From sequence record NC_014662.1: a stretch of DNA of 64,000 nt; one strand, given 5' to 3'. The stretch is from Enterobacter phage CC31. Shown piece by piece: positions 10,751 through 44,475 of this stretch. The position numbers were made by a program, and so were the translations under genes. The notes under the pieces are model-generated. The model was not told the DNA's origin, did not search any database, and saw only the letters and a program-made list of their open reading frames with translations. The stretch's first letter is position 1. The number at the start of each line of letters is the position of its first letter.

Positions 10751-11332
10751 TTATAGAGGGATTACTTTATACTTCTTATTGCCACGAGCATCACGCTTAC
10801 AAACTAATTTGCACTTCATGCCGCTTGTGATAGTGTAATCTTCATCAACCTTCATCCGCATCCAGTCTAATACCATTCCAGATGGGTTCAAAGATTTTTC
10901 AACTTCAACCATAATTTTAGTGCCAGACTTATAAAACTTAGATTCTTGTTGCTCATAGTCAGATAGTGCGCGAGCAAACGCAGATGGGCTTAAGAATTTA
11001 TTATAACCGTGAGCAGCAGCCACAAATGTATTATCTAAAGCATGTTTGATATTTTTGATTACGACTGTTGCGTAACCGATGTGTTTTTCTGGATAGTGAG
11101 TCATTACAAAGTCCTCATGAACTGCGAAAGTTTTTTGATGACGAGATTTTACATCAACATTTGATAAGCGTTTACGATAAACCACTTTCTCTTTTCGTTT
11201 AGATTTAGCTTTTGCCGATTCAACTTTAGCATAATATAAAGCTGCTTCTTCGGGTTTAATACCCGCTTCTCTCGCAATTTCAATAAAACTCAATCCGCAC
11301 TCATGCTTAAAATGAATCTCAATCGGTGTCAT
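10751..11332 (-). CDS. hypothetical protein with N-terminal helix-turn-helix-like segment
   Basis: 193 aa; GLSFIEIAREAGIKPEEA resembles an HTH; lysine-rich linker. Confidence 0.65.
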   Translation of the reverse strand: MTPIEIHFKHECGLSFIEIAREAGIKPEEAALYYAKVESAKAKSKRKEKVVYRKRLSNVDVKSRHQKTFAVHEDFVMTHYPEKHIGYATVVIKNIKHALDNTFVAAAHGYNKFLSPSAFARALSDYEQQESKFYKSGTKIMVEVEKSLNPSGMVLDWMRMKVDEDYTITSGMKCKLVCKRDARGNKKYKVIPL

Positions 11333-14802: not shown

Positions 14803-14827
14803 AAAAAAGGCCCCTCAAAAGAGGGGC
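14803..14827 (-). terminator. intrinsic terminator after uvsY.-2, between convergent transcription units
   Basis: GCCCCTC-TTTT-GAGGGGC on minus strand followed by CTTTTTTATT. Confidence 0.65.
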
Positions 14828-40645: not shown

Positions 40646-42901
40646 TTAAAGCTTACATGCAGAACAATCTTCGGCTTTTGGTTTTTCGATTTCAAAATCG
40701 TCGTTACCAGAACCATCACGAGTGTTATGATAGTACAACGTCTTACCGCCAAAGTACCAGAAGTAAAGCAAGTCGTCCATCATAACAGACATTGGCACTT
40801 TACCTTTCTCATAGTTCTGAGGGTCATAGTAAGTATTAGCTGATGCAGATTGGCATACCCACTTCAACATAATAGCTACTTGAGTCAGATAAGGTTTGTT
40901 ACCCTGTTTAGCAAGTTTCCATGCATAATCATAGAGGTCAGCATTCAGTTCAACATTCGGAACTACTTGGTTGAAGCTTCCTTCTTTAGACTCTTTAATA
41001 GAGACTGGACCTCGTGGCGGCTCAATACCGTTTGTGCTGTTGGAAACCTGGGAGGAGGACTCACATGGCATGAGTGCGGACAATGTACTGTTACGGATGC
41101 CATATTGCTTGAGTTCTGCACGGAGTGCTTCCCAGTCACAAACGTAATTCGGCGCCGCGAGCTGGTCAATTCTCTTATTGTACCAGTCGATAGGTAATTC
41201 GCCTCGAGACCAACGAGTGTCTTTATAATACTCGCAAGGTCCTTTTTCTTTTGCAAGTTTAATTGATGCTTTAATGAGTGCATATTGCAGCCTTTCAAAC
41301 AGTTCATGAGTCAGGTCGTTTGCATCAGCGTATGTAGCAAAGTTATCTGCCAACCAAGCAGCATAGTTCGTTACACCAACACCCAATGCTCGGCGTTTAA
41401 GAGCTTTCAAAGCTTCTTTAACTGGATAACCTTGATAACTCAAGAGGTTGTCGAGTGCTCGGACTTGGACTTCTGCGAGTTCGTTAATAGTTTCTTGGTC
41501 TTGCCAATCGAAGTTGCCGAGCACGAACGCAGACAACGTACACAGCGCAATTTCTGCGTCTTCTGAGTAGACGTCTTTAGTAGGTAACGCAATTTCTGCG
41601 CAGAGGTTCGATTGCTTAATCGTAGCCACATCACGAATAAAAGGACCATAATCACCAACGTTATCTACGAAGTAAGGATAGATACGAGCAGTACCCGAAC
41701 GCTCAGTCAAGAACAGTTCAATTAATTCACGAGCTTTAACACGTTTCTTACGAACATCTGGGTTCTTTTCAAGAGCTTCATATTGTTCACGGAACGCAGC
41801 AGCATCTTTGAAATAGTTCTCATACAAACGACCCGCATCAATATCCGGAGAGAACAGAGTGATGTAGTCGTCTTTAATCAGACGTTCAAACATCAGGTCG
41901 TTGATTTGAACACCATAATCCAAGTGACGAATTCGGTTTTCATCTACGCCTTTGTTGTTCTTAAGTACGAGGAGGTTCTCAACTTCAAGGTGCCAGATTG
42001 GATAGTACAATGTCGCCGCGCCACCACGGACTCCGCCTTGGGAACAAGACTTAACTGCTGTTTGGATGTGTTTCCAGAAAGGAATAACTCCAGTATGCTT
42101 GACTTCTCCGAAGCCGATTTTTGAACCTTCTGCACGAATCATACCTGCGTTAATGCCGATACCAGCACGTTTAGAGATGTACTCTACAATTGATTCAGCT
42201 GATTTGTTAATTGACTTCAGTGAATCACCAGCTTCAATAACAACGCAAGAACTGAATTGACGAGTAGGAGTACGAGCACCTGCCATGATTGGAGTTGGCA
42301 GAGAAATTTTCTTAGTTGACACAGCATCATAAAAACGAATAGTGTTAACCAAGCGATTTTCACCATCATCCTGGTGCAGAGTCATACCGATGAGCATGAA
42401 TGCAAACTGAGGAGTTTCGATGATTTGACCCGTGCTGCGGTCTTTAACCAGGTATTTTTCAATGAGCTGCATTGTACCAGCATACGTCATTTCAAAATCA
42501 CGGTCATGAACAATTTTACTTTCAAGCAGAGCAATTTCTTCAGCAGACCATTTGGCAAGAACTTCTTTGTCATATTTGTTGTGATTAACACCAAATGAAA
42601 TCTGGTCAATAAATGAACGAGGCTCAAACTGCCCATAAACTTGCTTACGGAGATTGAACATCGCCAGATTACTTGCGACGTACTGATAATCTGGTTCTTC
42701 AATTGAAATCATTGAAGCTGCAACCTTAGTAGCTGCGCGTTGAATGTCATACGTCGTCATTCCATCTTGCAGATGTGGAACGATAGCTTGATATAGCTCA
42801 TATGGGTCAACTCGGGTGTTTTCACAACCCCATTCCAGAACCTTAATAAGTTTTTCTGGAGTAAATTCCTGAGAGGTACCACTGGACTTAATTACTTTCA
42901 T
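40646..42901 (-). CDS. nrdA: ribonucleotide reductase large subunit
   Basis: 751 aa class Ia RNR alpha chain at the T4 nrdA position. Confidence 0.9.
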   Translation of the reverse strand: MKVIKSSGTSQEFTPEKLIKVLEWGCENTRVDPYELYQAIVPHLQDGMTTYDIQRAATKVAASMISIEEPDYQYVASNLAMFNLRKQVYGQFEPRSFIDQISFGVNHNKYDKEVLAKWSAEEIALLESKIVHDRDFEMTYAGTMQLIEKYLVKDRSTGQIIETPQFAFMLIGMTLHQDDGENRLVNTIRFYDAVSTKKISLPTPIMAGARTPTRQFSSCVVIEAGDSLKSINKSAESIVEYISKRAGIGINAGMIRAEGSKIGFGEVKHTGVIPFWKHIQTAVKSCSQGGVRGGAATLYYPIWHLEVENLLVLKNNKGVDENRIRHLDYGVQINDLMFERLIKDDYITLFSPDIDAGRLYENYFKDAAAFREQYEALEKNPDVRKKRVKARELIELFLTERSGTARIYPYFVDNVGDYGPFIRDVATIKQSNLCAEIALPTKDVYSEDAEIALCTLSAFVLGNFDWQDQETINELAEVQVRALDNLLSYQGYPVKEALKALKRRALGVGVTNYAAWLADNFATYADANDLTHELFERLQYALIKASIKLAKEKGPCEYYKDTRWSRGELPIDWYNKRIDQLAAPNYVCDWEALRAELKQYGIRNSTLSALMPCESSSQVSNSTNGIEPPRGPVSIKESKEGSFNQVVPNVELNADLYDYAWKLAKQGNKPYLTQVAIMLKWVCQSASANTYYDPQNYEKGKVPMSVMMDDLLYFWYFGGKTLYYHNTRDGSGNDDFEIEKPKAEDCSACKL

Positions 42902-43199
42902 GCAAATCCTCTAGCGTAAATGTGTCTTTGAATAATCTGTTTACTATATGAGCTATTATATCACCATGGCAAGCTTTAGGTTTACAAGTGCATCCTAATC
43001 TCATTCCACGGAGAGTCTCCAGGTGCTCACGTTTTATTTCACCACTCCTAATACGCTTAATGAAGTCCTCTTTAAAGGCTTCAATGGCAGCCTCCCGGCT
43101 GCCAGCATTTTTACCAACGTCATTACCCCACATTGTACCTCGTTGGATATTAACGTCGAAATCGGAATGGTATTTATTAACCACTCGACAAGCTCTCAT
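42888..43199 (-). CDS. hypothetical protein with LGCTCKPKACHGD motif
   Basis: 103 aa; start overlaps nrdA by 14 nt. Confidence 0.6.
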   Translation of the reverse strand: MRACRVVNKYHSDFDVNIQRGTMWGNDVGKNAGSREAAIEAFKEDFIKRIRSGEIKREHLETLRGMRLGCTCKPKACHGDIIAHIVNRLFKDTFTLEDLHESN

Positions 43200-43429
43200 T
43201 TAACTTCCACAATAAACCATGTATCATGAATTAATTGATTAGATTCAAGTCCGAATTCTTCAAAACCGTGCGCTTTTTCGTATGCATGGACAACGTTACG
43301 AACATAGAGACGCGCTCCACGAACTTGAATAATTGAACCGACCTTTGGAATTTCAGAATCACGGATGTTATAAACTTCTGCGATAGGGTCTTCTTCATTA
43401 TTTTGAATTACAATTCTAAGATGTGGCAT
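43196..43429 (-). CDS. hypothetical protein
   Basis: 77 aa ORF. Confidence 0.55.
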   Translation of the reverse strand: MPHLRIVIQNNEEDPIAEVYNIRDSEIPKVGSIIQVRGARLYVRNVVHAYEKAHGFEEFGLESNQLIHDTWFIVEVK

Positions 43430-44475
43430 TATGCTTTACTCACAATAACAACGCGTTCAGTAGATTCACCAACAATTTCAATGTGATGAGCCAGAACTAT
43501 ATGAAAATAGCCATTAATCATAATAGAAGAGTTTAATTTGAAGTCAGCATCGCACAGTTGCTCATCAGTTTGAGCATAAACGATACTTCCCAAAGCATTT
43601 GTAAATTTAGTAATCATACAGCCATTTTTTCCTTTGATTGTTGGGTGACTTTCATAGTTAACTAACTTGAAGTCTTCGATAACAGCAAATCGGTTTATCC
43701 ACTTAAGCTGAGATGAAGTTTGCCAGCGCTCAAACTCAATTGGAAAATCAATTTCAAGATTGCAGAGTTCTTTTGGCTCTCGACGAAGAATTTCTTCGCA
43801 CTGCTCAATATGATTTGAATAAATGTGAGTGTTGCCGCCAGTAAATACCAAATGACCAGGTTTTAAGCCAGTCATTTTAGCTACGATATGAATCAAAGCA
43901 GCATACGACGCAATATTGAATGGTAGACCAAGGAATACATCTACCGACCTCTGGTACCACTGGAGGTCCAGAAGCCCATTGCGTACGTTGAACTGATATA
44001 TCATATGGCATGGTGGAAGCGCCATCTTAGGGATGTCTAGAGGGTTCCAGGCGGTCACAATTTGACGGCGGTCATTAGGTAGTTCTTTGATTCGGTTAAT
44101 AACCAAAGTCAATTGGTCAACACCCATAAAGTCTCGCCACTGCTTACCATAAACCGGACCAAGCTCGCCGTCGACATATCCCATTGAACGAGCTTGATTT
44201 TCGTAGTTGTCGTCCCAAACAGTTTTACCATTTGTCGGAGACCCATGCTGACGAAGACGCAAATCGTTTACATTCGTTGAACCGGACAAGAACCACAGAA
44301 GTTCTGCAATACATGCTTTCCAAGCAAGCTTCTTGGTAGTCACTGCTGGAAAACCTTCTTGCAAATCAAATCGTAATTGAGTACCAAACACAGCACAAGT
44401 GCCAGTTCCTGTGCGGTCGTCAGTTACATAGCCTTCATCAAAGATGTGTTGAATTAGTTGTTGATATTGTTTCAT
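43429..44475 (-). CDS. td: thymidylate synthase, intron-free; ORF as sequenced carries a 62-codon C-terminal extension
   Basis: TS motifs (ALPPCHMIYQF, DVFLGLPFNIASYA) complete through HPTIKGK at about residue 283; frame then continues to 43429, see finding. Confidence 0.85.
   Translation of the reverse strand: MKQYQQLIQHIFDEGYVTDDRTGTGTCAVFGTQLRFDLQEGFPAVTTKKLAWKACIAELLWFLSGSTNVNDLRLRQHGSPTNGKTVWDDNYENQARSMGYVDGELGPVYGKQWRDFMGVDQLTLVINRIKELPNDRRQIVTAWNPLDIPKMALPPCHMIYQFNVRNGLLDLQWYQRSVDVFLGLPFNIASYAALIHIVAKMTGLKPGHLVFTGGNTHIYSNHIEQCEEILRREPKELCNLEIDFPIEFERWQTSSQLKWINRFAVIEDFKLVNYESHPTIKGKNGCMITKFTNALGSIVYAQTDEQLCDADFKLNSSIMINGYFHIVLAHHIEIVGESTERVVIVSKA

What the first reader, a model, noticed from the sequence alone, without database searches (positions are those of the whole stretch)
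43429..43640. td runs 62 codons past the canonical thymidylate synthase end at an A6 homopolymer
The TS domain is complete through NYESHPTIKGK, and thymidylate synthases normally end 3-4 residues later. Here the frame continues NGCMITKF... down to 43429. On the coding strand the site reads ATC AAA GGA AAAAAT GGC TGT ATG ATT (six T at 43625-43630 on the plus strand). With one A fewer the frame would read IKGKMAV-stop, and that TGA would overlap an ATG at 43617 opening a separate 62-codon ORF (MITKFTNALG...) that ends in a TAATG overlap with the next gene. This is therefore a genuine +1 frameshift allele, a homopolymer sequencing error, or a real TS fusion protein.
Basis: partly seen in the sequence, partly recalled or inferred. 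Interest (0 to 1): 0.6.

Follow-up and report, generated by a model that had tools for sequence, protein, structure and literature searches.

The report
One extra A fuses two genes
The over-long thymidylate synthase in this phage record (Enterobacter phage CC31) comes from one extra A in a run of A's that joins the enzyme gene to a separate small downstream gene; 32 related sequences checked keep the two genes apart, so this is a sequencing error or a private mutation, not a new form of the enzyme.

Summary
The td ORF (43429..44475, minus strand) is 348 codons long. It passes an A6 run (T6 at 43625-43630 on the plus strand). Removing one A gives a 286-aa Td ending IKGKMAV-stop, whose TGA overlaps the ATG (43617) of a 62-codon ORF.

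The window is Enterobacter phage CC31, and the 348-aa protein is its GenBank Td. With one A removed, Td aligns end to end with phage T4 Td (PDB 1TIS, 286 aa), with the same C-terminus.

All 32 other related sequences read at this site are one base shorter. They include assemblies 98.3-99.9% identical to CC31 whose only gap is this run. They encode Td (286 aa) plus either a separate 62-aa gene or no such gene.

The 62-aa ORF is a real stand-alone gene (phrog_12548, dN/dS 0.05-0.32). It was never found fused to Td outside two GenBank records.

The only other fused record, PG7, has at least 10 private single-base duplications in conserved genes, some essential in T4. It is therefore not independent support.

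Verdict: not a natural fusion enzyme. A base-call or assembly error is most likely (about 0.6). A real private frameshift in the sequenced stock is second (about 0.3). The wrong annotation has spread to at least 7 later genomes.

The parts
43429..44475 (-). td ORF as it stands in the record: 348 codons, made of Td residues 1-283, a 3-residue out-of-frame linker (NGC) and the whole 62-aa downstream ORF
   Evidence: The exact protein is ADB81733.1/YP_004010095.1, 'thymidylate synthase [Enterobacter phage CC31]', seen on 1 contig only.
43627..44475 (-). True thymidylate synthase coding part (residues 1-283, through ...HPTIKGK)
   Evidence: PF00303 match 2-283, E 3.7e-96. T4 Td 1TIS E 6.5e-142. 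phrog_160.
43625..43630 (-). A6 homopolymer on the coding strand (T6 on +), one base longer than in 32 related sequences
43614..43616 (-). Latent td stop codon TGA. It is in frame only if the run is A5, and is part of the ATGA stop/start overlap.
43429..43617 (-). Separate 62-codon gene (MITKFTNALG...SKA), family phrog_12548, function unknown, predicted small all-beta protein
   Evidence: Full-length match to phrog_12548, 1-63/63. Annotated as a separate 189-nt CDS in 19 GenBank relatives. The exact 62-aa product is called on 38 contigs. dN/dS is 0.05-0.32 in this frame against 0.7-1.8 in the other two. All 7 credible remote homologues are 62-64 aa. AlphaFold best-model pLDDT 81.8 (other four 52.6-64.2), five strands.
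43630..43634 (-). AAGGA, a Shine-Dalgarno-like motif 12 nt upstream of the ORF62 ATG (11 nt in the A5 form)
   Evidence: Read directly from the sequence. The function is inferred.
43196..43429 (-). Next gene, 77 aa (phrog_2458), whose ATG overlaps the ORF62 stop (TAATG). In relatives that lack ORF62 it sits directly on the td stop.
42888..43199 (-). DUF4326 / NrdA.1-like gene, 103 aa
40646..42901 (-). nrdA, ribonucleotide reductase large subunit, the end of the same string of overlapping genes

Best explanation
The 348-aa 'thymidylate synthase' is not a natural protein form. Biologically there are two genes. The first is td (286 aa, ending IKGKMAV like T4 Td). The second is a stand-alone 62-aa gene whose ATG overlaps the td stop (ATGA), an arrangement typical of translational coupling. 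In the CC31 record the A5 run in the last codons of td is written as A6. This shifts td out of its own frame past its TGA and into the frame of the downstream gene. The most likely cause is a one-base overcall at the homopolymer during sequencing or assembly of GU323318. Shown: the extra base is private to this record within its own lineage, and the fusion is not conserved. Inferred: the extra base is an error rather than a mutation.
For: 1. Removing one A restores a 286-aa Td that aligns 1-286 to 1-286 with T4 Td (1TIS), with an identical C-terminus IKGKMAV.

2. 23 of 24 GenBank relatives read at the site are one base shorter. They read GGAAAAA (12 records) or GGGAAAA (11 records), which are synonymous third-position changes in the td frame, so selection acts on the td frame up to the TGA. 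The same holds for Salmonella phage CGG4-1 and a metagenome contig and for 7 read-archive assemblies.

3. The corrected CC31 Td sequence occurs exactly on 5 independent assembled contigs. The four examined are 98.3-99.9% identical to the window over 2.4-6.9 kb. Each has exactly one gap, which is this run, and each has a separately called 62-aa gene where the contig extends that far (three of four).

4. The 62-aa ORF is a real, separate gene. It comes and goes as a cassette: four relatives lack it and place the next gene on the same ATGA. All 7 credible homologues among 1.84 billion representatives are 62-64 aa, and none is fused to TS.

5. The only other A6 record, PG7, is not the window's nearest relative. 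PG7 differs from the window at 22 positions. PG7's nearest relative differs from it at 7, and the window's nearest relatives differ from it at 19-20; all of these have A5. PG7 also carries at least 10 private single-base duplications, all of the neighbouring base, within or next to conserved genes including gp19 tail tube, gp20 portal, nrdA and nrdB. These genes are intact in the window and other relatives.

6. CC31 (published 2010) and PG7 appear, by accession series, to be the two earliest genomes of this genus. All later ones are A5 or A4.

7. The TS C-terminal segment closes on the active site and contacts the cofactor (PMC6514825). A form lacking it is therefore unlikely to be maintained.
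Against: - No reads or traces are available, and the CC31 paper gives no sequencing method.
- The CC31 record is otherwise clean. Over about 60 kb compared with three relatives, this is the only window-private frame-breaking indel in a high-identity coding context.
- 14 other runs of 6 or more bases have the same length in every relative where the run could be located. There is therefore no sign of systematic homopolymer miscalling in CC31.
- From established T4 genetics (my knowledge, not tested here): td is dispensable in a thyA+ host, and A runs are genuine replication-slippage hot spots. A real mutation would therefore be tolerated.
Confidence: 0.6

Rival explanations
1. Genuine private frameshift allele. 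A replication-slippage insertion (A5 to A6) arose very recently in the CC31 isolate or its laboratory stock. In this case the phage really makes a Td(1-283)-NGC-ORF62 fusion. The fusion would lack the Td C-terminus and probably have poor TS activity. It would be tolerated because host ThyA supplies dTMP.
For: - The record is otherwise free of coding frameshifts and of homopolymer length differences.
- The Td part is amino-acid-identical to wild contigs, which fits a very recent event.
- td dispensability and A-run slippage hot spots in T4 are established (my knowledge).
Against: - The nearest relatives (99.9% identity) carry A5.
- The only other occurrence is in an error-ridden record.
- The two A6 records appear to be the two oldest of the genus, which points to method rather than biology.
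- The td frame is under clear purifying selection through its last codons in all relatives.
Confidence: 0.32
2. A real, functional Td-ORF62 fusion enzyme that CC31 and PG7 share as a conserved form.
For: Two GenBank records annotate a 348-aa Td.
Against: - The two records are not sister lineages at this locus.
- PG7 is full of the same type of single-base error.
- 32 other sequences are unfused.
- No fused homologue exists among 1.84 billion representatives.
- The fusion replaces the catalytically important C-terminal residues MAV-COOH.
- ORF62 is a cassette that is absent from some relatives.
Confidence: 0.03
3. A programmed recoding site. Ribosomes slip on the A run, so that both Td and a Td-ORF62 fusion are made. 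This would need a -1 slip on the A5 form or a +1 slip on the A6 form.
For: - Lys-tRNA slippage on A runs is known (my knowledge).
- A -1 slip on the A5 form would yield exactly the protein encoded by the A6 form, as read from the sequence.
- The CC31 RNA downstream of the run folds better than shuffled controls (z = -3.2).
Against: - The run is not conserved. It is A4 in 11 GenBank relatives, through synonymous GGA/GGG changes.
- There is no conserved downstream structure in 8 relatives (consensus -0.73 kcal/mol).
- The same td end sits in front of unrelated downstream genes.
- Six A's are too few for efficient transcriptional slippage (my knowledge).
Confidence: 0.02

Closest known systems
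Phage T4 thymidylate synthase Td (PDB 1TIS, 286 aa)
   Same: The Td part is an orthologue. It scores 476-482 bits, and after removing one A the two align 1-286 to 1-286 with the same last seven residues, IKGKMAV.
   Different: As written in the record, the CC31 protein replaces MAV-COOH with NGC plus 62 further residues. CC31 td has no intron, whereas T4 td has a group I intron (my knowledge).
phrog_12548, a stand-alone 62-64-aa phage ORF of unknown function
   Same: Residues 287-348 of the fused ORF match the family profile end to end (1-63/63). The exact 62-aa sequence is annotated as a separate gene on 38 contigs.
   Different: In CC31 and PG7 it is not annotated separately, because it is read as the tail of td.
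Single-base homopolymer errors in deposited phage genomes (example: the PG7 record KJ101592)
   Same: A one-base lengthening of a run of identical bases changes gene boundaries. PG7 has at least 10 such private events and the same A6 at this site.
   Different: CC31 shows only this one case in coding sequence across about 60 kb, so the diagnosis for CC31 rests on comparison, not on a pattern of errors.
Streisinger-type slippage frameshift mutations at A runs in T4 (rII and lysozyme genes; my knowledge)
   Same: A +1 change in a run of A's in a T4-like phage gene that is dispensable in the laboratory.
   Different: No read-level or genetic evidence here shows that the change exists in the phage DNA.
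Programmed ribosomal frameshifting (dnaX -1, prfB +1)
   Same: An A-rich slippery stretch with a Shine-Dalgarno-like AAGGA just upstream.
   Different: The slippery run is not conserved, there is no conserved stimulator, and no fused product is conserved.

Membership tests
Thymidylate synthase ThyA/Td (PF00303) | Full-length TS domain above the curated threshold | tested here: met
   PF00303 scores 321.8 bits against a cut-off of 24.3, covering residues 2-283 and profile positions 1-263/266.
Thymidylate synthase ThyA/Td (PF00303) | Orthology to the T4-type Td | tested here: met
   1TIS E 6.5e-142. phrog_160 E 7.8e-122.
Thymidylate synthase ThyA/Td (PF00303) | Protein ends a few residues after the conserved HP.IK motif, leaving the free C-terminal segment that closes the active site | tested here: not met
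   As written, the ORF continues for 65 residues after KGK. The feature is met only after deleting one A. The role of the C-terminal segment is described in PMC6514825.
phrog_12548 small ORF family | End-to-end match to the family profile | tested here: met
   Match 1-62 to 1-63/63, E 1.1e-10. Profile search finds 7 credible representatives of 62-64 aa, all full length.
phrog_12548 small ORF family | Own start codon and independent reading frame under purifying selection | tested here: met
   An ATG in an ATGA overlap is conserved in 21 sequences. dN/dS is 0.05-0.32 in frame against 0.7-1.8 out of frame.
Natural gene fusion (Rosetta-stone type) | The fused form is found in independent lineages and its sequence quality is credible | tested here: not met
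   Only CC31 and PG7 are fused. PG7 is rich in single-base errors and is not a sister lineage at this locus. 32 other sequences are unfused. No fused homologue was found in the exhaustive search.
Programmed ribosomal frameshift site | Conserved slippery sequence | tested here: not met
   The run is A5 in 12 and A4 in 11 GenBank relatives.
Programmed ribosomal frameshift site | Conserved downstream stimulatory RNA structure | tested here: not met
   RNAalifold consensus is -0.73 kcal/mol across 8 sequences, despite z = -3.2 for CC31 alone.
Sequencing or assembly artefact | Reads or traces show A5, or an ambiguous call, at the run | not testable with these tools
   No read data are available. 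Petrov et al. 2010 gives no sequencing method for CC31.

The most novel reading that the evidence does not exclude
The A6 allele is real in CC31, and the phage makes a Td-ORF62 fusion polypeptide. A viable fusion would hint that the 62-aa protein works with Td, for example in the T4-type dNTP-synthesising enzyme complex. It would also imply either that +1 slippage on the run restores some normal Td, or that the free Td C-terminus is dispensable in vivo.
Probability: 0.05. Interest if true: 0.35.

Novelty: not a real feature. Interest (0 to 1): 0.08.

Why it matters
The matter is mainly one of database hygiene.

- **Spread of the wrong name.** The fused CC31 and PG7 Td entries have passed the name 'dTMP thymidylate synthase' to the unrelated 62-aa gene in at least 7 later genome records.
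- **Merged protein cluster.** The fused protein bridges 286-aa Td and 62-aa proteins into one 90%-identity cluster. This hides the small family from sequence searches.
- **False functional link.** Anyone using domain-fusion logic would wrongly link the small protein to thymidylate synthesis.

Correcting the record restores a normal T4-type td and an ordinary translationally coupled small gene of unknown function. Nothing here bears on an open biological question.

Tried and rejected
- **Public collection scans.** Scans of IMG/VR and of metagenome contigs for the site added only CC31, PG7, CGG4-1, Pet-CM3-4 and one metagenome contig. These add little.
- **Systematic homopolymer errors in CC31.** I looked for further private frameshifts over about 60 kb against UFV01, PG7 and VIPECLOM01. 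None was found in a high-identity coding context. This neither proves nor excludes a single error. My first pass used gap penalties that were too lax and gave spurious paired gaps, so I repeated it with stricter settings.
- **Sequencing method.** The CC31 paper does not state it. I found no paper describing how PG7 was sequenced.
- **Programmed frameshifting.** A hairpin-rich fold appears in CC31 alone, but it is not conserved. I rejected this reading.
- **Function of the 62-aa protein.**
  - There is no Pfam hit.
  - The PHROG family has unknown function.
  - The AlphaFold model is a small all-beta fold, but only one of five models is confident.
  - Foldseek against the PDB found nothing below E = 0.8, with only weak, non-significant EF-P/eIF5A domain-I-like matches.
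  - The function stays unknown.
- **Word-indexed protein search with ORF62.** It found only one cluster, because the main family is hidden in the Td cluster.
- **Looking for a re-sequenced CC31 via the exact NrdA protein.** This did not work, because the protein is identical in distant relatives. It did add three more unfused contigs.

Full report
**What is in the sequence**

The minus-strand ORF 43429..44475 is 348 codons long. On the coding strand the critical stretch reads ATC AAA GGA AAA AAT GGC TGT ATG ATT, with six A's at 43630-43625. The thymidylate synthase (TS) homology stops at residue 283-284. Pfam PF00303 covers residues 2-283, and the T4 enzyme (PDB 1TIS, 286 aa) aligns to residues 1-284. 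Residues 287-348 match a different family end to end: phrog_12548, a 63-position family of unknown function.

Deleting one A gives a 286-aa protein that aligns 1-286 to 1-286 with T4 Td and ends in the same seven residues, IKGKMAV. Its TGA overlaps an ATG at 43617, which opens a 62-codon ORF. The TAA of that ORF overlaps the ATG of the next gene.

**Where the window comes from**

The exact 348-aa protein is ADB81733.1/YP_004010095.1, 'thymidylate synthase [Enterobacter phage CC31]'. It occurs on a single contig of 165,540 bases. CC31 (GU323318) is the founding member of the T4-like genus Karamvirus and was reported in 2010 (PMC2993671). The nearest GenBank relatives are about 95-97% identical.

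**What relatives show at the site**

I fetched the locus from 24 GenBank relatives and read the site in each.

- 23 are one base shorter. 12 read GGAAAAA and 11 read GGGAAAA.
- The GGA/GGG and AAA/AAG differences are synonymous third positions in the td frame, so the td frame is under selection right up to KGKMAV-stop.
- All 23 annotate a td of 861 nt.
- 19 of them annotate a separate 189-192-nt gene starting in the ATGA overlap.
- Four (KaAlpha, myPSH1140, LilPanda, KMB17) lack the 62-aa gene altogether. They place the 77-aa gene on the same ATGA.
- Others keep the 62-aa gene but lack the 77-aa one.

The 62-codon ORF is therefore an independent cassette, not a TS domain. The same td end also occurs in Salmonella phage CGG4-1, in front of an unrelated gene, and in a metagenome contig.

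**The closest relatives**

The 'corrected' CC31 Td (the window's 283 residues plus MAV) exists as an exact sequence on five contigs assembled from public read archives. The four examined are 98.3-99.9% identical to the window over 2.4-6.9 kb. Each differs from the window by exactly one gap, which is the A run. The 62-aa gene is called separately in the three contigs that extend that far, and in the fourth the call is cut short by the contig end. Three more assemblies, found through NrdA, are also unfused.

In total, 32 sequences other than CC31 and PG7 were read at this site, and none has the extra base. The extra A is thus private to the CC31 record within its own lineage. The rest of Td shows no sign of decay.

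**The 62-aa ORF is a real gene**

- It is conserved as 62-63 codons, with conserved start and stop overlaps, in 21 sequences.
- Its dN/dS is 0.05-0.32, against 0.7-1.8 for the same DNA read in the other two frames.
- The exact CC31 amino-acid sequence is called as a stand-alone protein on 38 contigs.
- A profile search of 1.84 billion representative proteins found 7 credible homologues, all 62-64 aa and matched end to end. None was fused to a TS.
- Its function is unknown. There is no Pfam family. The AlphaFold model is a small five-stranded fold, with a best pLDDT of 81.8 but low confidence in the other four models. There is no significant PDB match.

**The one other fused record**

PG7 (KJ101592) also has A6 and annotates a 348-aa Td. 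It is not a sister of CC31 at this locus. Over 846 aligned bases PG7 differs from CC31 at 22 positions. It differs at only 7 from SonariX, which has A5. CC31's nearest relatives, which differ at 19-20 positions, also have A5.

The PG7 record also carries at least 10 private single-base insertions in contexts of 96-100% local identity. Each one duplicates the neighbouring base. They fall within or next to conserved genes such as gp19 tail tube, gp20 portal, nrdA and nrdB. As a result these genes are annotated as shortened or merged in PG7, but are intact in CC31, UFV01 and VIPECLOM01. A viable phage cannot carry frameshifts in its tail tube and portal genes, so these are sequence errors. The A6 in PG7 is best read as one more of them. 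By accession series, CC31 and PG7 also appear to be the two earliest genomes of the genus.

**Error or mutation in CC31?**

This cannot be settled here. In favour of a real mutation, the CC31 record is otherwise clean.

- Against three relatives over about 60 kb, this is the only window-private frame-breaking indel in a high-identity coding context.
- Only this run and an intergenic one at 14803 were found to differ in length from their counterparts in relatives.
- td is dispensable in a thyA+ host, and A runs are true slippage hot spots in T4 (established genetics, my knowledge).

In favour of an error:

- The base is private against relatives that are 99.9% identical.
- The only other occurrence is in a demonstrably faulty record.
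- The two A6 records appear to be the two oldest.
- The td frame is strongly conserved to its end.
- The TS C-terminal segment closes on the active site and contacts the cofactor (PMC6514825).

I put an error at about 0.6 and a real private frameshift at about 0.3.

**Rejected readings**

A conserved fusion enzyme is contradicted by all the comparative data above. Programmed frameshifting is also not supported. The run is not conserved, being A4 in 11 GenBank relatives. The downstream RNA fold seen in CC31 (z = -3.2) has no conserved counterpart (consensus -0.73 kcal/mol). The same td end also precedes unrelated genes. No promoter or terminator separates td from the small gene. The genes from frd to nrdA form one string with ATGA or TAATG overlaps, which fits translational coupling (inference).

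**Consequences**

Seven later records name the 62-aa gene 'dTMP thymidylate synthase' or 'dTMP synthase'. One note cites similarity to PG7 Td. The 90%-identity protein cluster that contains CC31 Td mixes 286-aa Td and 62-aa proteins, so a word-indexed search with the small protein finds almost nothing. The finding is ordinary biology with an annotation problem. Interest is low.

Noticed in passing
window 10751-11332 (-): CC31 has a single 193-aa ORF here. UFV01, VIPECLOM01 and PG7 have two overlapping ORFs instead (80 aa and 117 aa). Two one-base length differences (window 11107 and 11134) lie inside a locally divergent stretch of about 40 nt, and one of them creates another A6 run on the coding strand. 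This is either a second gene fusion private to CC31 or a divergent patch.
   Followed up: partly
window 42888-43617 and loci L001-L024: Small genes come and go as cassettes between td and nrdA. Three layouts occur: td-ORF62-ORF77-DUF4326, td-ORF77-DUF4326 and td-ORF62-DUF4326. Most junctions are 4- or 5-base stop/start overlaps (ATGA, TAATG), which may be the recombination joints.
   Followed up: partly
L031 (PG7, KJ101592 103700-153699): The PG7 record has at least 10 private single-base duplications within or next to conserved genes (gp19, gp20, rnlB region, uvsW, gp31.1, nrdB, nrdA). This explains its shortened, split or merged gene annotations, and the record looks rich in indel errors.
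   Followed up: yes
L003, L006, L008, L009, L015, L016, L020: Seven GenBank genomes label the unrelated 62-63-aa ORF 'dTMP thymidylate synthase' or 'dTMP synthase', a name inherited from the fused CC31 and PG7 entries. The 90% protein cluster of CC31 Td also mixes Td and the small protein.
   Followed up: yes
search hits H15 (EcL8g) and H22 (EnC07); L020 (CkP1): td is interrupted in some relatives. EcL8g has an insert of about 1 kb. EnC07 has a homing-endonuclease gene between two td pieces. In CkP1 td is annotated in pieces. CC31 td itself is uninterrupted.
   Followed up: no
window 43540-43626 (-): The RNA just downstream of the A run folds better than shuffled controls in CC31 (-22.1 kcal/mol, z = -3.2). 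The fold is not conserved in divergent relatives.
   Followed up: yes
window 14803-14808: An intergenic A6 run next to a GC-rich hairpin-like sequence (AAAAAAGGCCCC) is one base longer than in all three compared relatives. Besides the td run, this is the only run of 6 or more bases found to differ in length from its counterpart in relatives.
   Followed up: partly
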